Positions 6,773-20,294 are shown, numbered from the stretch's first letter. The stretch: 32,000 bases of DNA from Desulfobulbaceae bacterium S3730MH12 (GCA_001750925.1 MAXH01000042.1:1-32000); one strand, 5' to 3'. Notes: generated by a model from the sequence alone, not told the origin. Program-made: numbers and translations.

Positions 6773-6787
6773 ATTTTTTACAGTTTG

Positions 6788-6805: not shown

Positions 6806-6808
6806 CAC

Positions 6809-7047: not shown

Positions 7048-7482
7048 ATGAGTAGAATTCCATTTTCCGATCTTACACTTGACGACCTGCTTCCCCATCG
7101 CGAAAACATGATGCTGGTGAAAAAGGTTTTCGAAGTTGACAGCAAACATGCCCGCACACTCTGTCGCCCGGAGAAGTCCTGGCCCATGAGTGATGATAAG
7201 GGAGTCCATCCCCTGATTTTAATAGAGCTGGCGGCACAGACTGCGGGAGTATGCAACGGCTGGGACAGAATACAGACCCAGGGACTTGACTCAGATCAGA
7301 TGGGCTGGCTGGTGGGCATTAAAAAAGCTGAATTTTTTATTGACTGGTTGCCTCTGGGCAGCGACATTATCACCAATGCGGAAAACAGATATAATTTTGA
7401 AAATCTGCGGGTGGTATTCTGTGAACAGACCATGGACAATAAACTTATAGGCAGGATCACACTGCAGCTCTTCCAGGCATAG
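7048..7482 (+). CDS. hot-dog fold 3-hydroxyacyl-ACP dehydratase (APE-type, LLPHR-motif form)
   Basis: N-terminal DDLLPHRENMMLVKKV matches the LPHRxPxLLV motif of FabZ/APE dehydratases. Followed by VHPLILIELAAQTAG (central-helix His/Glu region). The ATG at 7048 was chosen; the track ORF starts at TTG 6988 with an implausible leader. Confidence 0.8.
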   Translation: MSRIPFSDLTLDDLLPHRENMMLVKKVFEVDSKHARTLCRPEKSWPMSDDKGVHPLILIELAAQTAGVCNGWDRIQTQGLDSDQMGWLVGIKKAEFFIDWLPLGSDIITNAENRYNFENLRVVFCEQTMDNKLIGRITLQLFQA

Positions 7483-7488: not shown

Positions 7489-8226
7489 ATGACGGAAAAA
7501 AACGAACAGCAGATAGCCATAGTAACCGGAGGCAGTAAGGGAATTGGCAGGGCAATCTGTGTGGAGCTGGCCCGAGCCGGTTATTACATCATTATCAATT
7601 ACATGAGGGATAAAAAGGGTGCAGAGCAGACCTTGGCAGAAGTCAAAGATGCTGGCAGTCAGGGAGAAATTTATCAGTTTGATGTAAGAGACATGGCGGT
7701 TGCCGAGAAGGTAGTTGAGGATATTGCAGAACGGCTGGGCAGCATTGCTGTTCTGGTCAATAACGCCGGCATCATAGCAGATGGTTTATTTATGATGATG
7801 TCTCAAAATAACTGGCAGTCTGTGATTGATACCAGTTTGCACGGTTTTTACAATATGACCCGACCCGTAATTGAAAAAATGGTGCGCAGACGAAAAGGAG
7901 CCATTGTTTCCATCTCTTCCGCCAGCTCTCTTATGGCCAACCGGGGTCAGGCCAACTATTCAGCAGCCAAGGCCGGTTTGAATGGTGCCAGCAGAGCAGT
8001 TGCTTCTGAGGTTGCCCGACTCGGCATCCGGATCAACGTAGTAGCCCCTGGCCTTATTGAAACAGATATGATCAGAGATGTGCCAAAAGATCAGATCAAA
8101 GCCATGATCCCCATGGCCCGCATTGGCAAGCCTGAAGAGGTTGCCCGGGTGGTAGGTTTTCTCTGCTCCGATGCGGCTTCCTATCTGACCGGCCAGATAA
8201 TATCAGTGAACGGCGGGATGTTTTAA
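7489..8226 (+). CDS. fabG: 3-oxoacyl-ACP reductase, SDR family (FabG-like ketoreductase)
   Basis: TGGSKGIGRAI cofactor motif, NNAG, and the catalytic Ser...YSAAK triad (ISSASS...NYSAAKAG). 245 aa. Confidence 0.9.
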   Translation: MTEKNEQQIAIVTGGSKGIGRAICVELARAGYYIIINYMRDKKGAEQTLAEVKDAGSQGEIYQFDVRDMAVAEKVVEDIAERLGSIAVLVNNAGIIADGLFMMMSQNNWQSVIDTSLHGFYNMTRPVIEKMVRRRKGAIVSISSASSLMANRGQANYSAAKAGLNGASRAVASEVARLGIRINVVAPGLIETDMIRDVPKDQIKAMIPMARIGKPEEVARVVGFLCSDAASYLTGQIISVNGGMF

Positions 8227-8238
8227 TGAAGCTGCACA
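8225..8238 (+). repeat. 14-nt start-region repeat AATGAAGCTGCACA (copy 1, LolA-like gene start)
   Basis: The same 14-mer recurs at 8815..8828, the start of the next gene. Both encode MKLH and begin a signal peptide. Confidence 0.85.
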
Positions 8239-8819
8239 CTCTGCTCATTGCCGTCTGGTTTTTTATCCTCGCTCCCCCACCCTCCTTCGGCTCTGCTGAC
8301 AGGAATCAGGTTCACCTGGATTCTATTCGGGCGGATTTCGTCCAGGAAAAGCATCTGAAAATACTTGCCCGACCACTAATCTCTACCGGGATCTTTGCCT
8401 TTCAGGCGCCCCGTTCACTGCGTTGGGAATACCTCACTCCTGTGCCATCCATCATGCTCATGCACAACGGTAAATTGAGCAAATATACTAAGATAGACGG
8501 TCAGTTCACAAAACAACGGGGGATGGGACTTGACTCCATGCAGTTTATGCTGGGCGAAATCAGCAACTGGCTTGATGGGCGATTTGCAGAAAATGAGATG
8601 TTCGTCGCATCTTTTCCTGACGAACAAACCATCCTGCTCAAGCCCAAAGATCAAACCCTCGCCGGTCTCATCAGCAAAATTGAACTTAAACTTTCAGATC
8701 AAAGAGGAATCCTTGACACTATAATGATTTTTGAAGGTTCTGACTCTTACACCAGGATGACCTTCAGTAATACCGTTATCAACAAAAATATCCCCGCCTC
8801 CCTTTTCACCCAAAAATGA
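8226..8819 (+). CDS. LolA-like outer-membrane lipoprotein carrier family protein (secreted)
   Basis: N-terminal signal peptide MKLHTLLIAVWFFILAPPPSFGSA. The LolA-like pattern RADFVQEK...GIFAFQAPRSLRWEY..P is present. About 197 aa. A LolA-like gene sits at this position in APE-type clusters. Confidence 0.7.
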   Translation: MKLHTLLIAVWFFILAPPPSFGSADRNQVHLDSIRADFVQEKHLKILARPLISTGIFAFQAPRSLRWEYLTPVPSIMLMHNGKLSKYTKIDGQFTKQRGMGLDSMQFMLGEISNWLDGRFAENEMFVASFPDEQTILLKPKDQTLAGLISKIELKLSDQRGILDTIMIFEGSDSYTRMTFSNTVINKNIPASLFTQK

Positions 8820-8828
8820 AGCTGCACA
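8815..8828 (+). repeat. 14-nt start-region repeat AATGAAGCTGCACA (copy 2, lipoprotein gene start)
   Basis: Identical to 8225..8238. Confidence 0.85.
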
Positions 8829-9481
8829 TCTTCTGCCTGTCTACCGTGATGATCCTGCTTACCAGCTGTGCTGTAGAAAAACAGAGGCACCTTCCGAATT
8901 TATCACCCGCTCCGGCCTTGGAGGAAACGTCCTGCTCTGCAGCTGTCTTCCCCCAGGGTAAATGGCAGTTTATCCACGCCATCGACTTCAGCATGAAAAA
9001 CGGTGCCGGCACCGCTGTTATCGGAGTTACCAGCCTTAGCAGAAATAGGATTGATTGTGCCCTGATCACCATTGAAGGACTCACACTTTTTGAGGCAGCC
9101 TACGAAGAGGAAAAGGGGCTGGAAATCCGGCGGGCAGTTCCCCCATTCGACAAGCCCCTGTTTGCAGAAGGGTTGATACGAGATCTGCGGACAATTTTTC
9201 AACCTCCGACCGGCGGTATGCAGACAGGGCAAATCCCCGGAGCAATAACTGTATGCCGGTATGCTGATAACATGGGCAGGGTTATAGATGTCCTCCCTGA
9301 AGCGGATGACTGCTGGCAGATTAATATTTACAATTCAGAGATGACCCTGGATCGTTCCATTACAGGAAGATCATGCAGAAACAATGGCTCTGCTCAGGTC
9401 CCTGAATATCTTGAGCTTAACAGTTACGGCCAAACCGGCTATACTCTTAAAATGACACTGATACGCGCTGATAAACTTTGA
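8816..9481 (+). CDS. putative lipoprotein of unknown function
   Basis: Signal peptide with lipobox MKLHIFCLSTVMILLTSC (L-T-S-C). No catalytic motifs recognised. Translationally coupled on both sides (ATGA, TGATG). It may correspond to the small lipoprotein (DUF-type) seen in APE clusters, which is unverified. Confidence 0.6.
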   Translation: MKLHIFCLSTVMILLTSCAVEKQRHLPNLSPAPALEETSCSAAVFPQGKWQFIHAIDFSMKNGAGTAVIGVTSLSRNRIDCALITIEGLTLFEAAYEEEKGLEIRRAVPPFDKPLFAEGLIRDLRTIFQPPTGGMQTGQIPGAITVCRYADNMGRVIDVLPEADDCWQINIYNSEMTLDRSITGRSCRNNGSAQVPEYLELNSYGQTGYTLKMTLIRADKL

Positions 9482-10758
9482 TGAAATTTAAACTTATCTA
9501 CCCTAAATGGGCCAAGCTGAGCAGACAGACAGAATTTCATCTGCCCCCCCACGGCCCCGTGGTTTTTGCCGCGACCCTTCCTGATAATATTGATATCGAT
9601 TTTATTGATGAAAATCTGGAAACCATCGATTTTGACGACGATGTTGACTTCGTAGGCATCTCAATGATGCTCACAGTCCAGGTAAAAAGGGGCTGGGAAA
9701 TTGCTGATAACTACCGCAAGAGAGGAATTAAGGTTATTTTTGGCGGCATTGCAACCATGCTCCATGCTGAAGAAACCATGGAACATGCAGATTCAGTTTT
9801 TCTCGGTGAAGCGGAAGGGAGAATGGCGCAGGTTCTCTCTGATTTCAACCATGACAGGTTGCAGCCATGCTATGATTTTTTAAGCGAAAGACCCGATATT
9901 GATCTGGTAGGTGCGGCGAGAAGAGATATCCTCAACCGCAAACTCTACAACTTCAAAGGCGTGCAGATGGTAGACCTGGTGCATGCTTCAAGAGGCTGCC
10001 GTTTTAACTGTTACCCCTGTGCCGTCTCCTACCTAGGAGGAAGGGTCTTTCGACCACGCCCCATCGATAAGGCGGTGGCCGAGATCGCCGGTATTGACAA
10101 TAACCGGCTCTTTATTGTCGATAACTCCCTGGCCCAGGATACCAAGTGGGAAATGGATCTGTTCAGGGAGATGATTCCGCTGAAAAAGAACTGGTGCTCT
10201 CATCCCATTGAGGATAACCCTGAGGTTCTTGATCTGGCAGCACAGGCGGGAGCCTGGTATGTGTACCAGGCAGTCTTTGATACCTCTGACTATATCAAAG
10301 AGCGGATCAAACGCTATCATGATCATGGAATCGGCGTGGAGGGAACAATCCTGCTCGGGCTCGACAGCCATACTGAAGATTCCATTAAACGGTTGATTGA
10401 TTTCCTTCTTGAGATTGAACTGGATCTTGCCGAATTTACCGTACTGACACCTTTTCCTCATACCAAAGCCTATGATGAACTGAACAAAAATAATCGTATC
10501 CTGTCCCGGGACTGGGATGATTTTTCAGCTGACCGGGTAGTATTTCAGCCAAAAAACATGAGCTCGCAGAAATTGCAGGAACTGCTCGATTACGCCTGGA
10601 ATACCTTTTATCAAGATGAACCCCAGCGAATAAAAATGGCCCGACTATTTAAGCAGGTTGTTAAAAAAGAGATGGAAAATAATACCTTCAGGCCAAGGGA
10701 CAGGAGCCTGACCGGACAATCTTTTGGCAAACCGGTAAACCGAGAAAATGCGCGCTGA
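9481..10758 (+). CDS. B12-binding-domain radical SAM enzyme (class B rSAM)
   Basis: N-terminal B12-domain-like region (FVGISMMLTVQ...IKVIFGGIATM). Followed by ASRGCRFNCYPCAV (CX3CX2C). The ATG at 9481 overlaps the preceding stop (TGATG); the track start at 9478 is a TTG. Confidence 0.85.
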   Translation: MKFKLIYPKWAKLSRQTEFHLPPHGPVVFAATLPDNIDIDFIDENLETIDFDDDVDFVGISMMLTVQVKRGWEIADNYRKRGIKVIFGGIATMLHAEETMEHADSVFLGEAEGRMAQVLSDFNHDRLQPCYDFLSERPDIDLVGAARRDILNRKLYNFKGVQMVDLVHASRGCRFNCYPCAVSYLGGRVFRPRPIDKAVAEIAGIDNNRLFIVDNSLAQDTKWEMDLFREMIPLKKNWCSHPIEDNPEVLDLAAQAGAWYVYQAVFDTSDYIKERIKRYHDHGIGVEGTILLGLDSHTEDSIKRLIDFLLEIELDLAEFTVLTPFPHTKAYDELNKNNRILSRDWDDFSADRVVFQPKNMSSQKLQELLDYAWNTFYQDEPQRIKMARLFKQVVKKEMENNTFRPRDRSLTGQSFGKPVNRENAR

Positions 10759-12109
10759 ATCTCCACCCGATATCAAAAAGAATATAGATGAACTGCTGCG
10801 GGGAGCATTATTTCCCGATAAAGAGTTTATCTGTTTCGGCTCTACTTTTGGTGATGTGTATAAAATGGCATCCCGGTTGCGTGTGGCGTTAGCAAATCCC
10901 CGGTATCAGGGGACAGCTGTCTGCCTTGCCACAGACAGCAAAGCAGTTATGGCTGCGGCTCTGCTGGCATCACTGGGGGGAGGGCCAGCCCTTCTTCTAC
11001 CCTATGCGTTTTCTGCCGGAGCCCTCGACAAAATGCACCAGGAAACCGGTTTTACAACTGCTGTTTCCGATCTGGATAGAGAATTCCCCAAAGGGGTTGA
11101 AGTTATCTGCCCACAATTTACAAAGACCGCTGAAGCTCCAATTAATACTCACACCTTGCCCCGCTCGGAACTACTGAAAATTTTCACCGGTGGTTCCACA
11201 GGTTCACCGCAGATCTGGCTCAAAACTTCGGAAAATATTTTCAGTGAAGGATTTTTTCTGGCAAATCGTTATAAAATAACTGAACAAGACTGCATTCTGG
11301 CCACCATCCCGCCTTACCATATCTACGGTCTGCTTTTCTCTATTGTCCTGCCTCTGGTCTCATCGGCATCTGTTGTAGAAGAAGTACCATCCTTTCCCGG
11401 TGAAATTACCCGTGCCGCCCAAGACAATAAGGTCACAATCCTGGCCAGTGTCCCCGCCCATTATCGGGCCTTACGTGATAAAAAAATATCGTTGAGACTG
11501 GCCGTTTCCTCGGCCGGCATGCTTGATGCGAAAGACAATGAAACATTCAGCCAATTAAACAGAGCCGGAATAGAGGAGATATATGGATCCACCGAAACCG
11601 GAGGAATAGCGACTAGAAACAGGTTCCTCGGTGAAAAGTATTTCACTCCTTTTACAACAATTGAATGGAAAATTATAAACCATCGGCTTGCTGTTCGCTC
11701 ACCCTATATCTCACCCGACCTGCCTGTTGATACCGAAGGGTTCTTCACCGCCAATGACCGGGTAGAGGCTGAAGAAACAGACAAATTTTCCCTGCAGGGG
11801 AGAATCGACGCTGTGACAAAAGTTGGAGGTAAACGGGTTGATCTTGAGGAAATCAGTACCCTTATTAAAGGTGAATCAGATGTTGATGACTGTGTAGCTC
11901 TGGCCCTTCCTGAAAAGGGAGGTCGTGAACACCGGATTGGCGTTTTGATCCAGGGGCACAGAGTGGAACCGAAAATGATTAAAAAATCACTGGTCAATGC
12001 CCTTGAGCCATACGCCATGCCCCGTCGCATTAAAGTAGTTGATCGAATTCCCGTAAATAAAAACGGTAAATATGACTGGCGTACTATTGCGCGGCTTCTT
12101 GAAAAATGA
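10748..12109 (+). CDS. AMP-dependent synthetase/ligase (ANL superfamily; acyl/aryl-ACP or -CoA ligase)
   Basis: ANL motifs: FTGGSTGSPQ (degenerate A3 P-loop), YGSTETGG (A5), GRIDAVTKVGGKRVDLEEI (A8), and the C-terminal NKNGKYDW lysine (A10). At 453 aa it is short, like APE-cluster ligases. Confidence 0.85.
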   Translation: MRAESPPDIKKNIDELLRGALFPDKEFICFGSTFGDVYKMASRLRVALANPRYQGTAVCLATDSKAVMAAALLASLGGGPALLLPYAFSAGALDKMHQETGFTTAVSDLDREFPKGVEVICPQFTKTAEAPINTHTLPRSELLKIFTGGSTGSPQIWLKTSENIFSEGFFLANRYKITEQDCILATIPPYHIYGLLFSIVLPLVSSASVVEEVPSFPGEITRAAQDNKVTILASVPAHYRALRDKKISLRLAVSSAGMLDAKDNETFSQLNRAGIEEIYGSTETGGIATRNRFLGEKYFTPFTTIEWKIINHRLAVRSPYISPDLPVDTEGFFTANDRVEAEETDKFSLQGRIDAVTKVGGKRVDLEEISTLIKGESDVDDCVALALPEKGGREHRIGVLIQGHRVEPKMIKKSLVNALEPYAMPRRIKVVDRIPVNKNGKYDWRTIARLLEK

Positions 12110-13824
12110 GTGCTATCGAAAAAAGTTTTGCTGCCGGCTATGCATATCTTTCTGCCTGGACAGATCTTCTGGATCAGATCAATGTCTTTCCTGTTACTGA
12201 TGGAGATACCGGAACCAATCTGCGTATCAGCCTGGCTCCGCTTCGCAGCAGTGACGGAAACGTCAGAAACACCCGCACCCTGCTGGCTCACTGTGCAACG
12301 GGAAACTCCGGTAATATTGCTGCGGCTTTTTTTCGGGAATTTTGTCAGGCTAAAAGCTCCTGTGAGCTTGCAGAAACAACCGCGGCGGGCAGAGAAATGG
12401 CCTGGCAGGCAATTGCCAGTCCCTGTGCCGGAACCATGCTCACGGTATTTGACAAACTGGCTTCGACACTGGCATCTGTGACCGAACCGGAAAACCTTTA
12501 TTCCTCCCTCAACCCGGAATTACAGAAGGCAGTCCATACCACATCAGAGATCCTGCCTGAGCTCAAGGAGGCCGGCGTGGTGGATTCCGGTGCCCTGGCC
12601 ATGTACCTTTATTTTGACGGCTTCTTCAGAAATCTCACCGGACAAAAAGATGACCCGGTCTCCATCATTGACATTTTTGCAGGCAAACTTGCTGTCAGCA
12701 GCTCTTTCCAACCGGAAAACACCAACGACTACTGTGTAGATGTTACCCTTCAGGTAGAAGATAAAGAAACAACAACCCGAAACTCCATTGCAGAGCTTGG
12801 GGAAAGTGCGGTGATATTGCAGGATAAATCAACCATGAAGGTTCACCTTCATACCCCTGACCCGCGCCGCCTGCGAAACCAGCTCGATTCGTTTGGTGAT
12901 GTCAGTGACTGGTCCCATGAAAAAATTAATCAGCAAACTGGAAAACAACAGGTAGAGGCCGGTAAAGAAGCAGTTCTCCATATTGTGACAGATGCCGCCG
13001 GCTCCATAACCAGAAAAATGGCCAGAGACCATGGCATTACCCTGCTTGACAGCCACATCATAGCAGGAGACAACTCAAGGCCGGAAAGTCTGTACAGCCC
13101 TGATCAAATCTACCCTTTGATGCGCAAAGGCATAAAAATTACCACCGCGCAATCCTCCACCCTCGAACGGCATCAGCACTATCAAAGTATTTGCCGGCAG
13201 TTCGGTCGTTCACTCTACCTTTGCGTTGGTTCTGCTTTTACCGGTAACTATGCTGCCGCTGCTGCCTGGAAGAAAGAATATGATCCCCAGAATTTTTTTA
13301 CCGTATTAGACACAGGTGCAGCTTCCGGACGACTTGCACTTATAGCCCTGCTCACCGCCGGACATTCAAAATTTGTCAACTCCTCCGAGGAGGTCATCGA
13401 GTTTGCCCGAAAAAGTATTACAGAATGTAAAGAGTATGTCTTCATAGACCAACTGAAATATCTCGTTGCCGGCGGTAGAATAACAAGAACCAGAGGTTTT
13501 TTCGGAAATCTGCTCAACATAAAACCTGTTATCAGCCCAACCGAAAATGAAGTGCGCAAAATTGCTGTGGTCCATAGTAGAAATGGACAACTTGAGTTTG
13601 CCCTGAAAAAGATCAACAACTCTTTTCAGAAATCTACCGCCTCCCCCCTGATCATGCTCCAATACACAGATAATGAGAAATGGGTGGGTGACACTGTGCA
13701 GTCGCAGATAAGAGCCCTGCTGCCGAAAGCTGAAATACTACTCACGCCTCTCTCCCTCACCTCCGGTGTTCATATGGGCCCTGGAACATGGTCCATAGCC
13801 TTCACCCGCCTGCACTTGACATGA
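12106..13824 (+). CDS. Dak2 (FakA/DhaL-like kinase domain) - DegV (FakB-like fatty-acid-binding domain) fusion protein
   Basis: N-terminus: INVFPVTDGDTGTNL and CATGNSGNI match the Dak2/FakA motifs DGDTGTN and GNSG. The C-terminal ~280 aa are DegV-like: HIVTDAAGS, TTAQSS, GSAFTGNY, VLDTGAASG, LVAGGRITRTRGFFGNLLNIKPVIS and GVHMGPGTWSIAF. Confidence 0.8.
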   Translation: MSAIEKSFAAGYAYLSAWTDLLDQINVFPVTDGDTGTNLRISLAPLRSSDGNVRNTRTLLAHCATGNSGNIAAAFFREFCQAKSSCELAETTAAGREMAWQAIASPCAGTMLTVFDKLASTLASVTEPENLYSSLNPELQKAVHTTSEILPELKEAGVVDSGALAMYLYFDGFFRNLTGQKDDPVSIIDIFAGKLAVSSSFQPENTNDYCVDVTLQVEDKETTTRNSIAELGESAVILQDKSTMKVHLHTPDPRRLRNQLDSFGDVSDWSHEKINQQTGKQQVEAGKEAVLHIVTDAAGSITRKMARDHGITLLDSHIIAGDNSRPESLYSPDQIYPLMRKGIKITTAQSSTLERHQHYQSICRQFGRSLYLCVGSAFTGNYAAAAAWKKEYDPQNFFTVLDTGAASGRLALIALLTAGHSKFVNSSEEVIEFARKSITECKEYVFIDQLKYLVAGGRITRTRGFFGNLLNIKPVISPTENEVRKIAVVHSRNGQLEFALKKINNSFQKSTASPLIMLQYTDNEKWVGDTVQSQIRALLPKAEILLTPLSLTSGVHMGPGTWSIAFTRLHLT

Positions 13825-14525
13825 AACCAGCTGTCATAATTCCTGTTTATAATCACGACCGTCAAGTCGTCGAAGTCATCCGGCAAACCTGTAAACTGGG
13901 TCTGCCGATCTTTGTGATTGATGATGGTTCAACAGACTCCACCTCCACCAATATTGATACGCTGAAAGGAATCACTGTCCTTCACCACCCCGTTAACAAG
14001 GGCAAAGGAGCCGCCATTCTCACCGGTCTTGCCGCCGCCGGAGAACAGAATTGTGACTATGCCATCACCCTGGATGGGGACGGCCAGCACAATCCTGAAA
14101 ATGCTGCAGAATTACTCCGCGCAGTCGATAACGGCGAGCGATGCATTGTCATCGGCAGCCGACAGGGCATGAAGGATGGAAAAAACGTGCCATGGACCAG
14201 CAAATTTGGCCGCAAATTTTCCAACTTCTGGGTGTGGGCAGCCGGTGGGCCTAAAGTGCAGGATTCCCAGTCCGGTTTCAGGCTCTATCCTGTCCCTGAA
14301 ACACTCCAGTTGGGCGTAAAAGCCAGGCGGTACCAGTTTGAGGTAGAGGTACTGGTCAAGGCCAGACAGCAGGGTATTAAAATCAGGGAAGCACCGGTGC
14401 AGGTCGTCTACCAGGCAAAAGGGAAACGAATCAGCCATTTCCGGCCCTGGCTTGATTTCTGGCGTAATTCGACCACCTTCAGCAGGCTGATATTTGCCCG
14501 CTTTTTCAGGATATTTCGGCCATGA
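13821..14525 (+). CDS. family 2 glycosyltransferase
   Basis: KPAVIIPVYNH, FVIDDGSTDST and TLDGDGQH (DxD-type) motifs. The ATG at 13821 overlaps the upstream stop (ATGA). The track start at 13788 lies inside the preceding gene. Confidence 0.85.
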   Translation: MKPAVIIPVYNHDRQVVEVIRQTCKLGLPIFVIDDGSTDSTSTNIDTLKGITVLHHPVNKGKGAAILTGLAAAGEQNCDYAITLDGDGQHNPENAAELLRAVDNGERCIVIGSRQGMKDGKNVPWTSKFGRKFSNFWVWAAGGPKVQDSQSGFRLYPVPETLQLGVKARRYQFEVEVLVKARQQGIKIREAPVQVVYQAKGKRISHFRPWLDFWRNSTTFSRLIFARFFRIFRP

Positions 14526-15391
14526 ATAATTTCTGGTATAAACTGCTTACCCGGACTGCCAACTTGTGTGGATCGTGGTTATTTATCATCGTATCCCGGA
14601 CTGTTGCCGCCGGCTACTTTCTACTTTCCAGGCGGGTGAGAGAAAGCAGCCGCTTCTATGCCGCCCTCTATCCCGGCAGAGGAAAACTCTACCATCTATG
14701 GTGCAGCTTTTACCAGTATCAGAATTTCACAACCATTCACCTTGACAGATTTTTGGCGAATCAAGCTAAATCAGTAACCTTTACATCCCAGGGTTGGGAA
14801 AAACTGGAATCGGTCATTGGATCCCGGGGTGGTATTCTTCTTATGTCACATCTTGGCAACTGGGAAATTGCCGCAACACTGCTCAAGCGGCAGAAAAACA
14901 ACCTGCGTCTGCTCCTCTATATGGGTATAAAGGAAAAAGAAGGGATAGAAAAGGCCCAAAAAGATACCCTCCGCAGATCCGGAGTAACCATCATTGGAGT
15001 AGAAAAAGAAGACAGTTCACCATTTTCCGCGTTGGAAGGTATTCGCTTTCTGCAGTCGGGAGGTCTGGTATCCATGGCAGGCGATATCGTCTGGCGCAAA
15101 GATCAACGAAAGGTATGTGTTTCTTTTCTGGGCCATGATGCCTTCCTGCCGGAAGCACCTTTTGTTTTTGCTCTGGTATCAGGTGCCCCGCTTTTTGTCT
15201 TCTTTGCATTCCGCACCGGCAAAAACTGCTACCACTTCACCCTGTCAGATCCAATCCCGGTTCGAACCGTATCCCGTCAGGATAGAGCCGAAGCCATCTC
15301 ACAGGCTGCTCAGCAGTACGCTGATCTGCTGGAAGAATCACTCCGGAAACATCCATTTGAATGGTATCATTTTGATCGATTTATTCATTGA
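14522..15391 (+). CDS. LpxL/HtrB-family lysophospholipid (lipid A-type) acyltransferase
   Basis: 289 aa with an N-terminal membrane anchor. The LLMSHLGNWE motif is the HxxxxD/E acyltransferase box as found in the lauroyl/myristoyl acyltransferase family. ATGA overlap with the GT2 gene. Confidence 0.75.
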   Translation: MNNFWYKLLTRTANLCGSWLFIIVSRTVAAGYFLLSRRVRESSRFYAALYPGRGKLYHLWCSFYQYQNFTTIHLDRFLANQAKSVTFTSQGWEKLESVIGSRGGILLMSHLGNWEIAATLLKRQKNNLRLLLYMGIKEKEGIEKAQKDTLRRSGVTIIGVEKEDSSPFSALEGIRFLQSGGLVSMAGDIVWRKDQRKVCVSFLGHDAFLPEAPFVFALVSGAPLFVFFAFRTGKNCYHFTLSDPIPVRTVSRQDRAEAISQAAQQYADLLEESLRKHPFEWYHFDRFIH

Positions 15392-15472: not shown

Positions 15473-15745
15473 ATGACCAGAGATGAATTAAAAGATAAAA
15501 TCTTAACAATCCTGACTGAAGATTTTGAATTTGAAAAACCCGGCCTGAACGACAATCTCCGAAACGACCATGGTTTTGACAGTATTGATGCCATTGAACT
15601 GCTGGGGAAAATTGAGATCATCCTTGACTTTTCCCTTACCCGGGATGAAAAAGAAAAGGCCATGGAAATCAGAACAATCAACGATATCCTTGATTATATT
15701 GAAGGAATCGTACAGTCTCGAAACAAACAACCAACTTCAGTCTGA
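15473..15745 (+). CDS. acyl carrier protein (third ACP of the cluster)
   Basis: HGFDSIDAIELLGKIE contains the phosphopantetheine serine. About 90 aa from the ATG at 15473; the track start at 15458 is a TTG. Confidence 0.85.
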   Translation: MTRDELKDKILTILTEDFEFEKPGLNDNLRNDHGFDSIDAIELLGKIEIILDFSLTRDEKEKAMEIRTINDILDYIEGIVQSRNKQPTSV

Positions 15746-15750: not shown

Positions 15751-16998
15751 ATGAAACGACGCGTTGTTATCACCGCCTGCTCTGCCATTACTCCTATCGG
15801 GTATGACAAAAGGGATATAATAGAAAGCCTCAGGCAGGGCAAATCCGGGGTAAAACCACTACGGGATGACGGATTGCTGACAAAACATATCCACTCCCGT
15901 GTATTCGGCACTGTCGACTACCCCATCGAGTACGGCTTCAAACGGCAGTACCGAAAGACCATGGGGCCCGTTGCCTTTTACGCCTGTCAGGTTGCAAAAG
16001 ATGTTTTGCAAAGCTCTGGCCTGAGTCGGGACTATATCACCTCCGGCCGTCTTGGTGTTGCCTTTGGCTCAACCCACGGCAGCCCTACCGTCCAGCGCGA
16101 TATCTACAAAACATTTTTCAACGATCTTGATTCAAAATTTTCCTCTATCGGAGCAGTTGATTATCTCCGCTCCATGGTTCATACGACAGCGGTAAACATC
16201 ACCCGAATGTTCGGCATCACCGGGCGGGTCATCGCTTCATCCACCGCCTGTACAACCAGCAGCCAGTCCATCGGGTTTGGTTATGAAACGATCAAGTATG
16301 GCATGCAGGATGCTATGATCTGTGGTGGGGCGGATGAGTATGATACTACCACTGTTGCAGTTTTTGATAACCTGCTTGCCTGTTCTGTAGATTATAATCA
16401 TAAACCGCACTGTACTCCCCGTCCATTTGATGCCGGACGAGACGGGTTGGTTGTAGGAGAGGGAGGCGGCGCTGTACTTCTCGAAGAGTATGAGTCCGCC
16501 AAAAGACGTGGCGCCAACATCCTTGGAGAAATCATTGGTTTTGGTTGCAATAACAACGGCGGCGACATGATCCTGCCGAATCTTGATGGAATTACCGCAA
16601 CCTTGCGTCTGGCACTCGAATCTGCCGAGATATCTCCCGACGACGTCGATTTTATCAGCGCCCATGCCACTGCGACAAAGATGGGTGATGTCATTGAATC
16701 TCAGGCCATAGCAGCGGTATATGGAAACGGACCACTGGTTACCGGCCTGAAAAGTTATATGGGCCATACCATGGGGACCTGTGGCGTCATTGAGTTAATT
16801 TTAACGTTGTATATGATGGAGCAGGGATTTATTGCCCCAACCCTCAATCTTGACAATGTTGATGAACGGTGCAGCATGCTGCGTCATACCCGTCAACTGA
16901 CTGATACCGCCATCAGGATAGCAGCCATTCAAAACTTTGCTTTTGGCGGAGTAAATACCTGCCTGCTTATTAAAAATGGTAGTGAAGCAGATTCGTAA
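15751..16998 (+). CDS. beta-ketoacyl-ACP synthase (FabB/FabF-like KS)
   Basis: Catalytic triad motifs STACTTSS (Cys), SAHATATKMGD (His) and GHTMGTCG (His), plus FAFGGVNTCLLI at the C-terminus. 415 aa. Confidence 0.9.
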   Translation: MKRRVVITACSAITPIGYDKRDIIESLRQGKSGVKPLRDDGLLTKHIHSRVFGTVDYPIEYGFKRQYRKTMGPVAFYACQVAKDVLQSSGLSRDYITSGRLGVAFGSTHGSPTVQRDIYKTFFNDLDSKFSSIGAVDYLRSMVHTTAVNITRMFGITGRVIASSTACTTSSQSIGFGYETIKYGMQDAMICGGADEYDTTTVAVFDNLLACSVDYNHKPHCTPRPFDAGRDGLVVGEGGGAVLLEEYESAKRRGANILGEIIGFGCNNNGGDMILPNLDGITATLRLALESAEISPDDVDFISAHATATKMGDVIESQAIAAVYGNGPLVTGLKSYMGHTMGTCGVIELILTLYMMEQGFIAPTLNLDNVDERCSMLRHTRQLTDTAIRIAAIQNFAFGGVNTCLLIKNGSEADS

Positions 16999-17764
16999 CG
17001 GTTCTTTTGGTCATCTGATTGATCGACTTATTGATTGCACTGTAACCATTGCATGCTGGAGCTGGTTTATATTTGGATTTCTGCTGTTTTTTTCCTGGCC
17101 CTATATTGCATTTTCGCTGTTTTCAAAAAATCCTGAAATTCATTTCCAGAAATTGAACAGCCTCTTTTACCGATTCTTTTTCCGTATCCTTAAGATAACA
17201 GCCCCCCGTCAAAAAATTGAAGTAGACAAACGGGTAGCAGCAATCAAATCTTCAGTTATTGTCTGTAACCACCTCTCCTATCTTGACCCGCTGCTATTGA
17301 TTGCTCTCTTCCCAAAACAAAAAACAATCGTCAAAACACGTTTTTTCGGGGCACCTGTTTTCGGCTGGATTATCACAAAATCCGGTTATCTCCCTGCGAC
17401 CTGCGAAGGACGGTTTTCCAGGATGATGATTGAGCAGATGGAAACGATGGCTACCTATTTGAAGGCAGGCGGTAATCTCTTTGTCTTCCCTGAAGGAACT
17501 CGGGTTCGGAATGGAAAAATAGGCGAACTTCATATGGGCGCCTTGAAAATTGCACGAATGCATCAAGCCCCTGTCCATGTTCTGCAGATTCGTAATAGCG
17601 ACAAACTCTTCACTCCCGGCAGGTTTCTTTTTAATACCAGGATAAGAAATACAATCAGCGTTAAAAGTATTGATTGCATCGAACCGGACTATGAGAATGA
17701 ACCACCATCTACTGCTCAACTTGCCCGGCGGGTTCGTCAATCATTTTACGAGAAGCAGATATGA
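16976..17764 (+). CDS. 1-acyl-sn-glycerol-3-phosphate acyltransferase family protein (PlsC-like)
   Basis: N-terminal TM segment. VCNHLSYLDP is the HX4D box and VFPEGTR is the second acyltransferase box. Overlaps the KS gene by 23 nt. Confidence 0.85.
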   Translation: MVVKQIRNGSFGHLIDRLIDCTVTIACWSWFIFGFLLFFSWPYIAFSLFSKNPEIHFQKLNSLFYRFFFRILKITAPRQKIEVDKRVAAIKSSVIVCNHLSYLDPLLLIALFPKQKTIVKTRFFGAPVFGWIITKSGYLPATCEGRFSRMMIEQMETMATYLKAGGNLFVFPEGTRVRNGKIGELHMGALKIARMHQAPVHVLQIRNSDKLFTPGRFLFNTRIRNTISVKSIDCIEPDYENEPPSTAQLARRVRQSFYEKQI

Positions 17765-19251
17765 AAGTAATTCTAATATCTATGCCTGATGTGGTACCTG
17801 TCATCATTCACGAAGCGGCATTCCACCTGTCAAACCATGGAATAGCCAGTGTTGGAGCAAATATCGACATTGAACATGATGTTTTTCTGATTGATCTGAT
17901 TCGAAAGCGTCGGTCAATTAGAAAATATATTGCCAGAGCAGTGAGGAAGATCAAACCTGATCTTATTGGTCTTTCCGCCATGACCTGGCAGTATAACACC
18001 TGTATTAAGATAACCCGCCTCATCAGGGAACTCCTTCCCGAAGTAAAAATAGTTATCGGGGGATACCACACCACCCTGATGTTTGAGGAGATAGCGACAT
18101 CCCATGAGGCAAAATTCATCGACTTTATGATCAGGGGCGAAGGTGAAGAGCCATGCCGCCTGCTGGTTAATGCACTTGCCGGCCAGGGAAACCCGGCTGC
18201 AATCCCCTCGCTGTCGTATAAAAAAAATGGCGTTTTTATACACAATCCCCGGAGTGAAAACCTCGATCTCAGCGAATTGAAACTGCCAATCCGGGATAAG
18301 CGAAGATTGACCTGGGGATACCATATGCTTCACTCCAAAATCGAACTGATAGAAACATCCCGCGGCTGCACGCGATCCTGCAACTTCTGTTCGATGAAAC
18401 ACATGTATGGCCGTACCTTCAGGACGTTTCCTCTCATCCGGGTGCTAACAGATATTGACGATATTTATTTTAAGCGAAAGACACGGTATATTTTTATCAC
18501 AGATGATAATATGGTGCTTAACCCAGCCAGGGTCATAGAACTGTGTGATGCCATAATTGCCAGGAATTATAAAGATCTTCATCTTTTTGTCCAGGCTGAC
18601 TGCGTATCGATGGCAAAAAACGAGGCGATGGTCGCAAAAATGGCAGAAGCCGGTTTTCGTTCCGTTTTCCTCGGTATTGAAAACGTATCAAAAAAGAACC
18701 TGGCCGCTGCAGGTAAAGGCGATATTATTGCATCTTCCAAACAAGCTGTTCAAAACTGTCATAAGTACGGAATGATGGTCATCGGTGGCCTTATATTCGG
18801 CTTCCCCGAGGATGACGAAGAATCGATCAGAGATAATTATGAATTCTTCAAATCTATTAAAGCCGACGCAGCGTACTGCCAGGTGTTGACCCCCTATCCC
18901 AAAACCGGGATACGAGAACATCTTCTACAGCAGGAATTAATTACCAACCGGACTGATTTTACAAAATACAACGGTCTGTGGGCCAATGTACGAACAAATT
19001 ATTTAGCTACAGAACAGCTGCAATTCCAATTCTGGTACCAGCGTCAAGTTGTGCTGGGCTGGTGGAATCCACCCGCCGAGGTCAGAAGTCAAGGATGGGC
19101 ATGGATATTCGTCTGGCGGTTTATGTTCAAACCTTTTTTGACACTCTACTATAGAAGGGTTATGAAGAAGTACGGCTGGGAAGGACGCTACAGGAAAGAA
19201 GTAACACGGTGGGAAAACATGAACAGGTTTCAGGATCTTGAGGATTACTAA
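17761..19251 (+). CDS. B12-binding-domain radical SAM enzyme (class B rSAM)
   Basis: N-terminal MKVILISMP...LIGLSAMTWQ...VKIVIGGYHTT resembles a cobalamin-binding domain. Followed by TSRGCTRSCNFCSM (CX3CX2C). 496 aa. ATGA overlap with the upstream gene. Confidence 0.85.
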   Translation: MKVILISMPDVVPVIIHEAAFHLSNHGIASVGANIDIEHDVFLIDLIRKRRSIRKYIARAVRKIKPDLIGLSAMTWQYNTCIKITRLIRELLPEVKIVIGGYHTTLMFEEIATSHEAKFIDFMIRGEGEEPCRLLVNALAGQGNPAAIPSLSYKKNGVFIHNPRSENLDLSELKLPIRDKRRLTWGYHMLHSKIELIETSRGCTRSCNFCSMKHMYGRTFRTFPLIRVLTDIDDIYFKRKTRYIFITDDNMVLNPARVIELCDAIIARNYKDLHLFVQADCVSMAKNEAMVAKMAEAGFRSVFLGIENVSKKNLAAAGKGDIIASSKQAVQNCHKYGMMVIGGLIFGFPEDDEESIRDNYEFFKSIKADAAYCQVLTPYPKTGIREHLLQQELITNRTDFTKYNGLWANVRTNYLATEQLQFQFWYQRQVVLGWWNPPAEVRSQGWAWIFVWRFMFKPFLTLYYRRVMKKYGWEGRYRKEVTRWENMNRFQDLEDY

Positions 19252-19256
19252 TTTCA

Positions 19257-20294
19257 ATGCAGATATATAATTTTGAATTTACCGAACAAGAGATCCGTGA
19301 GGCAGTGGCTACCGACAGACTTCTATCCATGGAGATTGAGTTCAGCCGGGTTTGCAACTTCCGCTGCTCTTACTGCTATGTTGACGAGAAGGTTGAATGC
19401 AATAATGAGCTTTCCAGAGAAGAGATCAGGAATGTCATCCGGCAGGCAAAAGAGCTGGGAGCACGAAAAATAATCATTCTTGGGGGAGAACCATCTATTT
19501 ATCCGCATCTCGTTGAGATGCTGCGCTTTCTTGGTAAAGAGAACCTTCAGATCGAAATGTTTACCAATGGTTCCGGCATTGACAAAGAGTTGGCTGGAGT
19601 GCTGGCCGAAGAAAAGGTCCGGATTGCCTTGAAACAAAATTCCCGGGATGAGAAAATCCAGGATCATCTGGCCGGGAAAAAAGGAGCATTTCGGATGATC
19701 AACAGGGCGCTGGCTGCATTAAAAGAGGCAGGATACCCCTCTAAAGAGCTGTTTCTGGCAATCAGCACTGTCATCTGCCGACAAAACATTAAAGAATTAC
19801 CGTCAATGTGGCAGTGGTTGCGAGCTGAAAATATTGAACCTTATTTTGAAGTCATTACTCCCCAGGCTAATGGTCGTGAAAATAGTTGGCTTGGCGTCGA
19901 CCCGGAAGAATTGAAGGAGTTATTTACCGAGCTTTCGGCCATTGACAAAAAAATGTTTGGTCGGAAATGGGAACCACAGCCACCACTGGTAGGCAACAAA
20001 TGCATGCGGCACCAGGTCTCCTGTGTGGTTACAGCAACCGGTGATGTCATGCCCTGTGTAGGAGTTACCATTGCTCTGGATAATATTCGCCACAACAAAC
20101 TCGCCTCTATCCTGAAAAACAGTGAGGTGATCAGCAATCTGAAGAATTACCGGCAGATGATCAAGGGAGAGTGCCGCAGTTGCGAAAAAGCATCCGAATG
20201 TTATGGCTGTCGGGGAGCAGCATATCAACTCACCGGTGATTATCTCGCCTCAGATCCCACCTGCTGGCGCAATTCTGCCTGTAAAAATCTATGA
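19257..20294 (+). CDS. radical SAM enzyme with C-terminal SPASM/twitch-like Cys-rich domain
   Basis: EFSRVCNFRCSYCYV (CX3CX2C). C-terminal auxiliary-cluster pattern NKCMRHQVSCVVTATGDVMPC ... CRSCEKASECYGCRGAAY ... DPTCW. Last gene of the cluster. Confidence 0.85.
   Translation: MQIYNFEFTEQEIREAVATDRLLSMEIEFSRVCNFRCSYCYVDEKVECNNELSREEIRNVIRQAKELGARKIIILGGEPSIYPHLVEMLRFLGKENLQIEMFTNGSGIDKELAGVLAEEKVRIALKQNSRDEKIQDHLAGKKGAFRMINRALAALKEAGYPSKELFLAISTVICRQNIKELPSMWQWLRAENIEPYFEVITPQANGRENSWLGVDPEELKELFTELSAIDKKMFGRKWEPQPPLVGNKCMRHQVSCVVTATGDVMPCVGVTIALDNIRHNKLASILKNSEVISNLKNYRQMIKGECRSCEKASECYGCRGAAYQLTGDYLASDPTCWRNSACKNL

What the first reader, a model, noticed from the sequence alone, without database searches (positions are those of the whole stretch)
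17761..20294. Radical-SAM complement: three class-B (B12) rSAMs, one SPASM/twitch rSAM and one further rSAM in a fatty-acyl context
Five independent CX3CX2C motifs are read directly:
- CNIRCEGC (1..180)
- CSFNCIYC (3019..4362)
- CRFNCYPC (9481..10758)
- CTRSCNFC (17761..19251)
- CNFRCSYC (19257..20294)

Three have N-terminal B12-binding-like domains. The last two genes form a tandem pair 5 nt apart that closes the plus operon.

Established precedents for such enzymes on lipids include C-methylation of unactivated carbons (hopanoid methylases HpnP/HpnR), cyclopentane ring formation in GDGTs (GrsA/GrsB), and tail-to-tail C-C coupling in membrane-spanning lipids (Tes and bacterial analogues). Five of them around one PKS/FAS core implies multiple radical tailoring steps on a single acyl scaffold, which is rare.
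Basis: partly seen in the sequence, partly recalled or inferred. Interest (0 to 1): 0.78.

Follow-up and report, generated by a model that had tools for sequence, protein, structure and literature searches.

The report
Radical-SAM pair in polyene-lipid cluster
Two neighbouring radical-SAM enzyme genes end a small, widely conserved lipid-building cassette inside a known but still unsolved "ladderane-type / aryl-polyene-like" gene cluster of sulfate-reducing Desulfobulbaceae; one enzyme is core to the cassette and the other is an optional add-on.

Summary
All five CX3CX2C motifs are in frame in genes with radical-SAM support. Three carry B12-binding domains. The last two genes lie 5 nt apart and end the plus operon.

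The cluster is not rare or new in kind. It is the Desulfobulbales version of the "ladderane-type" FASII cluster described in 2009 for Desulfotalea psychrophila and Kuenenia. Its product is still unknown. Its backbone enzymes are closest to aryl-polyene (Ape) proteins.

New here:
- The pair belongs to a five-gene cassette: ACP, ApeR-type ketosynthase, PlsC-type acyltransferase, B12-rSAM, SPASM-rSAM. The cassette can stand alone.
- The B12-rSAM is accessory. It is absent in 13 of 62 informative loci, spread over at least six clades.
- The SPASM enzyme is core. In Omnitrophota and other lineages it is fused to a hotdog domain homologous to the window's ApeP-like dehydratase.

This fusion suggests the SPASM enzyme acts on ACP-tethered 3-hydroxy/enoyl (polyenoyl) intermediates. 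The B12 enzyme is most likely an optional C-methyltransferase.

Neither enzyme belongs to HpnP/R, BchE, AhbD, MoaA or TIGR04072. Chemistry and product remain inferred.

The parts
15473..15745 (+). ACP_c, the dedicated acyl carrier protein (90 aa, DSID motif).
   Evidence: ORF found in the 15391-15751 gap. Called as PP-binding in the orthologous loci L083 and L084. 62-94% identical across loci.
15751..16998 (+). ApeR-type (FabB-like) beta-ketoacyl-ACP synthase with an intact Cys166/His305/His338 triad.
   Evidence: Pfam ketoacyl-synt. NCBIfam PRK09116 at 399 bits. Closest solved structures are 7F27 AbApeR (E 5e-95) and 4EWG PpApeR (E 4e-93); their identities come from PMC8358021. Triad read.
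16976..17764 (+). PlsC/ApeD-type lysophospholipid acyltransferase with an N-terminal membrane helix, an HX4D motif (H99) and FPEGTR.
   Evidence: Pfam Acyltransferase at 71 bits. TIGR00530 AGP_acyltrn at 70 bits. Motifs and hydropathy.
17761..19251 (+). Class B (cobalamin-dependent) radical SAM enzyme, 496 aa. It is the accessory member of the cassette and a probable C-methyltransferase.
   Evidence: PF02310 at 70.6 bits, PF04055 at 62.1 bits and the CTRSCNFC motif. Fold hits are TsrM, OxsB, TokK and CysS. Closest PDB sequences are 9CCB (glutamine C-methyltransferase) and TokK. No NCBIfam cutoff is reached. Absent from 13 of 62 informative loci.
19257..20294 (+). Radical SAM/SPASM enzyme, 345 aa, with 8 invariant C-terminal Cys, which implies two auxiliary clusters. 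It is the core radical enzyme of the cassette.
   Evidence: PF04055 at 92.3 bits and PF13186 at 27.7 bits. Invariant Cys at 249, 256, 267, 306, 309, 315, 318 and 336. Always next to KS/PlsC. Fused to an ApeP-like hotdog domain in other phyla.
6988..7482 (+). ApeP-like hotdog 3-hydroxyacyl-ACP dehydratase (LPHR motif). It is the predicted partner of the SPASM enzyme. A gene caller starts it at 7048.
   Evidence: An HMM of the C-terminal domain of the fused SPASM proteins hits only this protein (E 3.4e-10). Closest PDB entry is 6QSR_B. Weak hits to Pfam ApeP-like and to FabZ.
3019..4362 (-). B12-rSAM of the TIGR04072 'lipid biosynthesis B12-binding/radical SAM' (ladderane-cluster) family.
   Evidence: 391 bits against a 360 cutoff. 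CSFNCIYC motif.
9478..10758 (+). Third, divergent B12-rSAM (CRFNCYPC). A gene caller starts it at 9481.
   Evidence: PF02310 at 34.1 bits (cutoff 32.1) and PF04055 at 24.7 bits (below cutoff). 77-86% conserved across loci. 19-24% identical to the other two B12-rSAMs.
1..180 (-). N-terminus of a 351-aa rSAM (CNIRCEGC). It is the paralogue of a 332-aa rSAM just outside the window.
   Evidence: 28% identity over the full length between the two paralogues.
4359..6509 (-). KS-CLF fusion (ApeO-ApeC type), 716 aa.
   Evidence: Pfam ketoacyl-synt plus Ketoacyl-synt_2. Closest PDB entries are 6QSP ApeO, 9S5H and 7F28.
6506..6808 (-). ACP_a.
   Evidence: PF00550.
1497..3065 (-). Phytoene-desaturase-like flavoprotein.
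   Evidence: Amino_oxidase at 77 bits. Weak hits to the CrtI family. Start taken from the called gene in L001.
938..1525 (-). PEMT/ICMT-like membrane methyltransferase.
452..808 (-). ApeI/FabA-like hotdog dehydratase.
181..447 (-). ACP_b.
   Evidence: Called as PP-binding in L001. DSM motif.
7489..15391 (+). Anchor and export module: FabG, LolA-like, a 221-aa lipoprotein, (B12-rSAM), AMP-ligase, a Dak2-DegV fusion, GT2 and an LpxL-like acyltransferase.

Best explanation
SHOWN

Genes 17761-19251 and 19257-20294 are the last two genes of a conserved five-gene cassette. Its order is ACP, ApeR-type ketosynthase, PlsC/ApeD-type acyltransferase, class-B (cobalamin) rSAM, SPASM rSAM.

The cassette sits in a roughly 40-kb type II FAS/PKS cluster of a Desulfobulbaceae MAG. 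This is the 'ladderane-type' cluster known from Desulfotalea and anammox bacteria. Its backbone enzymes are aryl-polyene (Ape)-like.

The SPASM enzyme is the constant radical component. The B12 enzyme has been lost repeatedly while the rest of the cassette stayed intact. In other phyla the SPASM enzyme is fused to a hotdog domain homologous to the cluster's ApeP-like dehydratase.

INFERRED

1. The ApeR-type KS, together with the cluster's KR and the ApeI/ApeP dehydratases, builds a short enoyl or polyenoyl chain on the dedicated ACP.
2. The SPASM enzyme docks on the ApeP-like hotdog protein and abstracts a hydrogen from the ACP-tethered 3-hydroxy/enoyl (polyenoyl) intermediate.
3. Its two auxiliary [4Fe-4S] clusters take the second electron. 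The net result is a two-electron oxidation or an intramolecular C-C bond.
4. The B12-rSAM adds an optional methyl group to a carbon of the same chain or head group.
5. The PlsC-type enzyme moves the finished acyl group onto a lyso-lipid anchor. GT2, the LpxL-type acyltransferase, LolA and MMPL then decorate and export it.

The product is unknown. It is probably not a ladderane.
For: Cassette and synteny:
- Identical order in Desulfoprunum (L083).
- Stand-alone cassette in Desulfopila (L084).
- In 80 metagenome loci, 49 carry the B12 gene and 13 have PlsC directly abutting the SPASM gene. L119 was checked ORF by ORF.
- The B12-less loci fall in at least 6 separate clades of the SPASM tree, interleaved with B12-carrying loci.
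- B12-less loci L116, L119, L121 and L155 keep the other B12-rSAM, so the loss is specific to this gene.

Conservation: the B12 enzyme is 72-94% and the SPASM enzyme 79-100% identical across Desulfobulbales.

Fusion:
- All 120 of the top homologues of the Omnitrophota-type SPASM protein are about 495 aa long and carry an ApeP-like annotation.
- An HMM of their C-terminal domain hits only the window's ApeP-like protein among 31 cluster proteins (E 3.4e-10, 127 of 144 positions).
- In 5 Desulfobulbales loci an ApeI-like dehydratase gene directly follows the SPASM gene.

Ape affinity:
- KS415 is closest to 7F27/4EWG (ApeR).
- The KS-CLF fusion is closest to 6QSP/7F28 (ApeO).
- The hotdog protein is closest to 6QSR_B.

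Class B assignment: Pfam hits and fold hits to TsrM, OxsB, TokK and CysS.

Methylase leaning:
- The closest solved sequences are C-methyltransferases, 9CCB (QCMT) and TokK.
- Every functionally characterised group of B12-rSAMs contains C-methyltransferases (PMC12931638).
- The accessory distribution fits a tailoring step.

Lipid link of the B12 family:
- A PlsC gene is adjacent in Jettenia and Loosdrechtia homologues.
- In Acidobacteriaceae the family sits in ACP/KS/CLF/LpxL/AMP-ligase clusters.
Against: - No substrate or product is known for any member. Heterologous expression of the Kuenenia genes gave no product (PMC4790861).
- The fusion is seen in a different lineage, about 60% identical to the window's SPASM protein.
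- The fused hotdog domain has Gln in place of the catalytic His in 96 of 120 sequences. It may only bind the substrate.
- Pairwise BLAST did not detect the homology. It needed a profile.
- The best NCBIfam hit of the B12 enzyme is BchE, a cyclase, not a methylase (160 bits).
- Most anammox homologues have no lipid context.
- The models are only moderate (pLDDT 69 and 64).
- The cassette has no KR, DH or ER of its own. In Desulfopila it stands away from the rest of the cluster.
Confidence: 0.4

Rival explanations
1. All five or six rSAMs act in sequence on one acyl scaffold. They carry out methylation, ring formation or tail-to-tail coupling in the manner of HpnP/R, GrsA/B and Tes.
For: All the genes are clustered with FAS/PKS genes. 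The sub-modules stay linked in most genomes, although their order changes.
Against: - The window has three ACPs and three KS genes, with two more KS just outside.
- The cassette stands alone in L084, L092 and L106.
- The B12-rSAM is dispensable.
- Scores against HpnR, HpnJ and BchE are far below the cutoffs.
- Tes is not among the 25 best NCBIfam hits shown for the SPASM enzyme.
Confidence: 0.2
2. The B12-rSAM is not a methylase. It is a BchE/OxsB-like enzyme that forms or rearranges a ring on the polyene chain. Cobalamin would act as an electron sink or as a second radical source.
For: The best NCBIfam hit is BchE at 160 bits. OxsB is among the top fold hits. The nearest relatives are a multi-copy family in ladderane-producing anammox bacteria.
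Against: - The BchE score is a third of the cutoff.
- The enzyme is dispensable within the cassette, which is unusual for a skeleton-forming step.
- The closest solved sequences are methylases.
- The anammox paralogues mostly lack a lipid context.
Confidence: 0.2
3. The cassette is an independent pathway. It remodels ordinary membrane phospholipid acyl chains, for example by mid-chain methylation or cross-linking, and does not tailor the Ape-like product.
For: - The cassette stands alone in Desulfopila.
- It includes a PlsC-type glycerolipid acyltransferase.
- Sequence conservation is very high, as expected for a core function.
- The B12 enzyme has an aromatic, basic C-terminal tail.
Against: - The KS is ApeR-type, not FabF-type.
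- The SPASM enzyme is fused to an ApeP-like domain inside Ape-like clusters that also carry LolA and MMPL.
- In most loci the cassette adjoins the other modules.
Confidence: 0.15
4. The SPASM enzyme is a peptide or protein maturase, as most SPASM enzymes are. It would act on the dedicated ACP or on an unannotated small peptide.
For: Top fold hits include anSME, SkfB, SuiB and PqqE, all of which act on peptides or proteins.
Against: - No precursor-like ORF is present. The SPASM gene is followed by 58 bp and then the convergent glgP gene.
- The fusion partner is an acyl-binding hotdog domain, not a peptide-recognition element.
Confidence: 0.04
5. The pair are misplaced housekeeping cofactor enzymes: AhbD/NirJ for heme, MoaA for molybdenum cofactor, or BchE.
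For: The names of the best NCBIfam hits.
Against: - AhbD scores 126 against a 500 cutoff, NirJ2 119/500, MoaA 68/284 and BchE 160/481.
- Synteny with ACP, KS and PlsC is strict across more than 60 loci.
Confidence: 0.01

Closest known systems
'Ladderane-type' extended FASII clusters of Kuenenia stuttgartiensis and Desulfotalea psychrophila (Rattray 2009, PMC2649909; NCBIfam TIGR04072; anammox 'Cluster I', PMC10139942)
   Same: - The same gene set: ACP, a KS plus an inactive KS (here fused as KS-CLF), a FabZ-like dehydratase, a phytoene-desaturase-like protein, a B12-rSAM (the gene at 3019-4362 passes TIGR04072), a paralogous pair of small rSAMs, an AMP-ligase, a GT and an MMPL transporter.
- The same order of bacteria as D. 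psychrophila.
- The product is unknown in both.
   Different: - The tandem pair studied here reaches no ladderane-family model. The B12 enzyme scores 95 bits against TIGR04072 (cutoff 360).
- I could not show that it is the counterpart of Kuste2803.
- Non-anammox carriers make no ladderanes (PMC2649909).
Aryl polyene (APE) biosynthetic gene clusters (ApeR, ApeO-ApeC, ApeI/ApeP, ApeD, ApeH, ApeJ, ApeL, ApeM)
   Same: - The closest solved structures of KS415, the KS-CLF fusion and the hotdog protein are ApeR, ApeO and chain B of 6QSR (which I take from memory to be the Xenorhabdus ApeI-ApeP complex).
- The cluster has the same accessory set: LPLAT, GT2, LolA-like protein, AMP-ligase and MMPL.
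   Different: - APE clusters have no radical SAM enzymes, no phytoene-desaturase-like protein and no Dak2-DegV fusion.
- An aryl starter and a pigment have not been shown here.
Class B cobalamin-dependent rSAM C-methyltransferases (QCMT/MgmA 9CCB, TokK, CysS, HpnR/HpnP)
   Same: An N-terminal Rossmann B12 domain followed by an rSAM barrel. Best sequence and fold matches.
   Different: About 16-19% identity in the fold-search alignments. No family cutoff is met. The substrate is presumably an acyl or polyene chain. Methyl transfer has not been shown.
SPASM rSAMs acting on non-peptide substrates (AhbD/NirJ; lipid-active Tes and Gms)
   Same: An rSAM core plus a SPASM domain with two auxiliary clusters. 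Lipid context, as for Tes and Gms (PMC13459092).
   Different: Scores are far below the AhbD and NirJ cutoffs. The substrate is ACP-linked rather than a membrane tetraether. The hotdog fusion is not known for those families.
Jaw5 (rSAM cyclopropanase working with an iterative PKS in jawsamycin biosynthesis)
   Same: A radical SAM enzyme that modifies carrier-bound enoyl intermediates during chain elongation. This is the working analogy (PMC13459092).
   Different: To my knowledge Jaw5 is a HemN-like (class C) rSAM and has no SPASM domain. It works with a type I PKS.

Membership tests
Radical SAM superfamily | CX3CX2C cluster motif inside a partial TIM-barrel rSAM domain | tested here: met
   The 496-aa protein has CTRSCNFC and PF04055 at 62.1 bits. 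The 345-aa protein has CNFRCSYC and PF04055 at 92.3 bits.
Class B (cobalamin-dependent) rSAM | N-terminal Rossmann-type B12-binding domain preceding the rSAM core | tested here: met
   PF02310 at 70.6 bits against a 32.1 cutoff, residues 14-134. The model matches TsrM, OxsB, TokK and CysS at TM 0.53-0.61.
Class B (cobalamin-dependent) rSAM | Actual cobalamin binding and use | not testable with these tools
   This needs reconstitution and UV-vis or EPR of the purified protein.
TIGR04072 rSAM_ladder_B12 (lipid biosynthesis B12-binding/radical SAM protein) | Score at or above the curated cutoff of 360 bits | tested here: not met
   The 496-aa protein scores 95.3 bits. The paralogue at 3019-4362 scores 391 bits and is a member.
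   BchE 160/481, HpnR 111/650 and HpnJ 102/578.
GrsA/GrsB, HpnP, Mss | Sequence membership | not tested
   No model or sequence of these families was available in the tools used. None appeared among the NCBIfam hits.
SPASM-domain rSAM | C-terminal 7-8 Cys motif (CX2CX5CX2-3C plus flanking Cys) for two auxiliary [4Fe-4S] clusters | tested here: met
   PF13186 at 27.7 bits against a 21.5 cutoff. Invariant C249, C256, C267, C306, C309, C315, C318 and C336 in 27 sequences.
AhbD / NirJ / PqqE / MoaA (housekeeping SPASM or twitch enzymes) | Score at or above the curated cutoff | tested here: not met
   AhbD 126/500, NirJ2 119/500, PqqE 108.5/381 and MoaA 68/284.
'Ladderane-type' extended FASII cluster (Rattray 2009; antiSMASH 'ladderane') | Co-clustered ACP, KS plus inactive KS, hotdog dehydratase, phytoene-desaturase-like protein and TIGR04072 B12-rSAM | tested here: met
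   All are present at 1497-7482.
'Ladderane-type' extended FASII cluster | Production of ladderane lipids | not testable with these tools
   None were detected in the relative D. psychrophila (PMC2649909).
Aryl polyene (APE) cluster | ApeR-type KS, ApeO-ApeC KS/CLF, ApeI/ApeP dehydratases, LPLAT, GT, LolA-like protein, AMP-ligase | tested here: met
   Closest PDB entries are 7F27/4EWG, 6QSP/7F28 and 6QSR_B. Several of those hits are below the gathering cutoffs.
Aryl polyene (APE) cluster | Aryl starter unit and conjugated polyene pigment product | not testable with these tools
   No gene for starter supply was identified. The product is unknown.

The most novel reading that the evidence does not exclude
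The SPASM enzyme and its hotdog-fused relatives define a new class of radical SAM enzymes. They work 'in line' with a type II FAS/PKS elongation cycle. They dock on or are fused to the ApeP-type dehydratase subunit and perform radical oxidation or ring closure on ACP-tethered enoyl/polyenoyl intermediates.

This is the kind of step proposed, but never demonstrated, for stepwise ('type c') ladderane assembly. If true, the system is available in cultivable, non-anammox sulfate reducers, with natural variants that carry or lack the B12-rSAM.
Probability: 0.2. Interest if true: 0.8.

Novelty: new member of a known kind. Interest (0 to 1): 0.45.

Why it matters
Radical-SAM chemistry on fatty-acyl (ketoacyl-derived) lipids is almost unexplored. 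A 2026 review lists only the hypothetical ladderane enzymes and Jaw5 (PMC13459092).

Anammox bacteria cannot be manipulated genetically, and their enzymes have resisted heterologous expression (PMC4790861, PMC10139942). This window shows three things:
- The homologous machinery in Desulfobulbales splits into separable modules.
- One small cassette (ACP, KS, acyltransferase, SPASM-rSAM, with or without the B12-rSAM) is a tractable unit.
- A domain fusion points to the likely substrate state, an ACP-bound intermediate at the dehydratase.

Together these give concrete experiments for an old problem. The cluster type itself is already known.

Tried and rejected
- The promoter/terminator scan of 15200-20500 gave no more sites than shuffles. 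Operon boundaries therefore rest on gene spacing only.
- There are no Rfam families or tRNAs in the window, and so no cobalamin or SAM riboswitch.
- The exact-sequence look-up of the SPASM protein found no contig. The source was inferred from a 100% identical named protein and from L001.
- Pairwise BLASTP between the fused SPASM protein and the window's hotdog protein found nothing. Single-sequence Pfam hits to ApeP-like were below the cutoff. Only a profile of 120 C-terminal domains gave a specific hit.
- I considered that the 496-aa protein is the counterpart of Kuste2803, the anammox 'unique' B12-rSAM. I rejected this as unproven: none of about 60 anammox loci has a KS next to the homologue, whereas Kuste2803 lies beside FabF genes. 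Two annotated anammox contexts carry no lipid genes.
- I considered a relation to the bacterial membrane-spanning-lipid synthase Mss. This could not be tested because no sequence was available.
- I considered loss of the B12-rSAM through lack of cobalamin. I rejected this because B12-less loci keep another B12-rSAM.
- The structure models (pLDDT 69 and 64) were good enough for fold class only. The SPASM region is not modelled.

Full report
**Observation**

The window carries a divergent pair of operons around position 6900.

- CNIRCEGC: the first 60 codons of a minus-strand gene cut by the window edge.
- CSFNCIYC: 3019-4362, minus strand.
- CRFNCYPC: 9478-10758.
- CTRSCNFC: 17761-19251.
- CNFRCSYC: 19257-20294.

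A six-frame scan finds nine such motifs, four of them in non-coding frames. The motif by itself therefore does occur by chance. The five claimed motifs lie in ORFs with independent profile support.

Three of these proteins have N-terminal B12-binding domains, with PF02310 at 60.7, 34.1 and 70.6 bits against a cutoff of 32.1.

The last two genes are 5 nt apart. They are followed by a convergent glycogen phosphorylase gene.

A locus with identical genes (L001) shows what lies beyond the left edge. The truncated gene encodes a 351-aa protein. It is followed by a 332-aa paralogue with its own CNLRCRGC motif, two more ketosynthases, a thioesterase, a PS-DH dehydratase and an MMPL/methyltransferase fusion. 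The whole cluster is about 40 kb and has at least six rSAM genes.

**Source and gene map**

The SPASM protein is 100% identical to a protein of 'Desulfobulbaceae bacterium S3730MH12'.

Minus operon:
- ACP
- KS-CLF fusion
- B12-rSAM
- phytoene-desaturase-like protein
- PEMT-like methyltransferase
- ApeI-like hotdog protein
- ACP
- rSAM

Plus operon:
- ApeP-like hotdog protein
- FabG
- LolA-like protein
- lipoprotein
- divergent B12-rSAM
- AMP-ligase
- Dak2-DegV fusion
- GT2
- LpxL-type acyltransferase
- then ACP (15473-15745), KS, PlsC-type acyltransferase, B12-rSAM and SPASM-rSAM

These assignments rest.

The three B12-rSAMs are only 19-24% identical to each other.

**It is a known kind of cluster**

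The B12-rSAM at 3019-4362 passes the NCBIfam equivalog TIGR04072, 'lipid biosynthesis B12-binding/radical SAM protein' (391 bits against a 360 cutoff).

Rattray et al. (2009) described striking synteny between the Kuenenia 'ladderane' FASII clusters and clusters in Desulfotalea psychrophila. The shared genes included SAM-radical enzymes, phytoene-dehydrogenase-like proteins, a CoA-ligase and a membrane transporter. They found no ladderanes in D. psychrophila (PMC2649909).

antiSMASH 'ladderane' BGCs are reported in Desulfobacterota, Omnitrophota and other phyla, with unknown function (PMC9902471).

No enzyme of these clusters has an established reaction (PMC10139942, PMC4790861, PMC13459092).

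The backbone is aryl-polyene-like:
- KS415 is closest to ApeR structures: 7F27 at E 5e-95 and 4EWG at E 4e-93.
- The KS-CLF fusion is closest to ApeO: 6QSP and 7F28.
- The hotdog protein is closest to 6QSR_B.

The identities of the PDB entries 7F27, 7F28, 4EWG and 6QSP come from PMC8358021. That 6QSR is the Xenorhabdus ApeI-ApeP complex is from my own knowledge and was not checked here.

**The tandem pair itself**

The 496-aa protein is a class B rSAM by profile. It is also class B by fold, matching TsrM, OxsB, AprD4, TokK and CysS at TM 0.53-0.61 (model pLDDT 69).

It reaches no curated family: BchE 160/481, HpnR 111/650, HpnJ 102/578 and TIGR04072 95/360.

Its closest solved sequences are the glutamine C-methyltransferase 9CCB and TokK.

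It has no membrane helix. Its C-terminal tail is rich in aromatic and basic residues.

The 345-aa protein is a full SPASM enzyme with eight invariant C-terminal cysteines. Its scores against AhbD, NirJ, PqqE and MoaA are far below the cutoffs. Its fold hits are generic: anSME, SkfB, SuiB, viperin and MoaA.

Both proteins are unusually conserved within Desulfobulbales, at 72-94% and 79-100% identity.

**A five-gene cassette with one core and one accessory radical enzyme**

In Desulfoprunum the layout equals the window.

In Desulfopila sp. IMCC35006 the genes ACP, KS, PlsC, B12-rSAM and SPASM form a stand-alone operon among unrelated genes.

I mapped the cluster proteins onto 80 metagenome loci found with the SPASM alignment:
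- 49 loci have the B12-rSAM directly upstream of the SPASM gene.
- 13 loci have PlsC directly abutting the SPASM gene with no B12-rSAM. L119 was verified ORF by ORF.

On a neighbour-joining tree of the SPASM proteins the B12-less loci fall into at least six separate clades, interleaved with loci that carry the B12 gene. Several of them still carry the other B12-rSAM of the cluster. The loss is therefore specific to this gene and is not a consequence of lacking cobalamin.

The modules around the cassette are reshuffled between genomes. Downstream of the SPASM gene one finds the desaturase-methyltransferase pair, or the ApeI-ACP-rSAM-rSAM-KS-KS module, or unrelated genes.

**A fusion that points to the substrate**

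A more distant branch of the SPASM family is about 60% identical over residues 2-339. Sources name several members as Omnitrophica/Omnitrophota. These proteins are about 495 aa long.

Their clusters contain FabG, a desaturase-like protein, a KS, a PlsC-type acyltransferase, an AMP-ligase, the SPASM protein, LolA, MMPL, a KS and a B12-rSAM. They have no homologue of the 496-aa protein.

I built an HMM from the extra C-terminal domain of 120 such proteins. Among 31 proteins of this cluster it hits only the ApeP-like hotdog protein at 6988-7482 (E 3.4e-10, 127 of 144 positions).

The 'LPHR' catalytic histidine is glutamine in 96 of 120 fused domains. The window's free-standing protein keeps LPHR.

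In five Desulfobulbales loci the gene right after the SPASM gene is the ApeI-like hotdog protein.

I read this as a Rosetta-stone link. The SPASM enzyme works on or with the hotdog dehydratase, which handles ACP-tethered 3-hydroxyacyl and enoyl thioesters.

**Relatives of the B12 enzyme**

In a library clustered at 50% identity the family drops from a 60%-identical cluster straight to about 40% identity. 638 representatives have E below 1e-30.

The closest genomes outside Desulfobulbales fall into two groups:
- Anammox bacteria, at 38-46% identity, often with several, partly tandem copies per genome.
- Acidobacteriaceae and Bryobacteraceae, where the gene closes an ACP, B12-rSAM, LpxL-acyltransferase, KS, CLF, AMP-ligase cluster.

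A PlsC-type gene directly precedes the anammox homologue in Jettenia and Loosdrechtia. Other anammox copies have no lipid neighbours. I therefore do not equate the window's protein with Kuste2803 or with any ladderane step.

**Mechanism proposed**

Shown: the cassette, the core and accessory roles, the Ape affinity and the fusion.

Inferred:
1. An ApeR-type KS, together with the cluster's KR and dehydratases, builds a short enoyl or polyenoyl chain on ACP_c.
2. The SPASM enzyme, docked on the ApeP-like subunit, abstracts a hydrogen atom from this intermediate.
3. It uses its auxiliary clusters as the electron outlet. The result is a desaturation-type oxidation or an intramolecular C-C bond.
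4. The B12-rSAM adds an optional methyl group.
5. The PlsC-type enzyme transfers the product to a lyso-lipid anchor for decoration and export.

I give this about 0.4 overall. The class assignments and the cassette structure are near certain. The chemistry is not.

**Verdict**

The cluster is a further member of a known, widespread, functionally unsolved kind. The idea of five tailoring steps on one scaffold is not supported.

The useful additions are the separable cassette, the dispensable B12 enzyme and the SPASM-hotdog link.

Noticed in passing
window 1497-7482 (both strands): ACP, KS-CLF fusion, TIGR04072 B12-rSAM and a phytoene-desaturase-like protein, with a divergently transcribed FabZ/ApeP-like dehydratase. 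This mirrors anammox 'Cluster I' (amxACP, amxFabZ, FabF2/FabFmut, PDH, B12-rSAM), which recent papers call unique to ladderane producers. Here the KS and the inactive KS are fused into one 716-aa protein.
   Followed up: partly
L005-L065 (anammox genomes), e.g. L008, L012, L031, L032, L044, L058-L060: The closest non-Desulfobulbales relatives of the 496-aa B12-rSAM form a multi-copy, often tandemly duplicated family in Brocadia, Scalindua, Jettenia, Loosdrechtia and Anammoxibacter, with 2-4 or more copies per genome. Most copies have no lipid genes nearby.
   Followed up: partly
L066-L080 (Acidobacteriaceae, Terracidiphilus, Bryobacteraceae): A conserved cluster of ACP, distant B12-rSAM, LpxL-type acyltransferase, KS, CLF, AMP-ligase and a 496-like B12-rSAM (38-40% identity). 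It occurs in lineages that I recall as iso-diabolic-acid/brGDGT producers; this was not checked here. Its function is unknown.
   Followed up: no
window 12106-13824 (+): A Dak2 (FakA-like) domain fused to a DegV (FakB-like) domain in one 572-aa protein inside the lipid cluster. This looks like a single-chain fatty-acid kinase. It is conserved in the orthologous clusters at 41-59% identity.
   Followed up: no
window 8816-9481 (+): A 221-aa protein with no family hit. It has a lipoprotein signal with a lipobox (LLTSC), lies next to the LolA-like gene and is conserved at 40-44% identity in related loci.
   Followed up: no
The window therefore has three ACPs.
   Followed up: yes
L001 10629-12690 (left of the window): A paralogous pair of small rSAMs (351 and 332 aa, 28% identical) with a C-terminal CCx5-6CxxC motif and almost no Pfam signal. 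They are probably the counterparts of Kuste3342/3343 and DP1853/1855.
   Followed up: partly
P0391-P0510; L157-L164: In the fused SPASM-hotdog proteins the catalytic His of the hotdog 'LPHR' motif is Gln in 96 of 120 sequences. The domain may have become a substrate-binding module and lost dehydratase activity.
   Followed up: partly
window 23626-28888 (+): A methionine/cysteine biosynthesis block (Cys/Met PLP enzyme, alpha/beta hydrolase (possibly MetX-like), MetW, a hexapeptide transferase and a PALP enzyme) lies a few kb downstream of the cluster. It is probably housekeeping. No link to SAM supply was tested.
   Followed up: no
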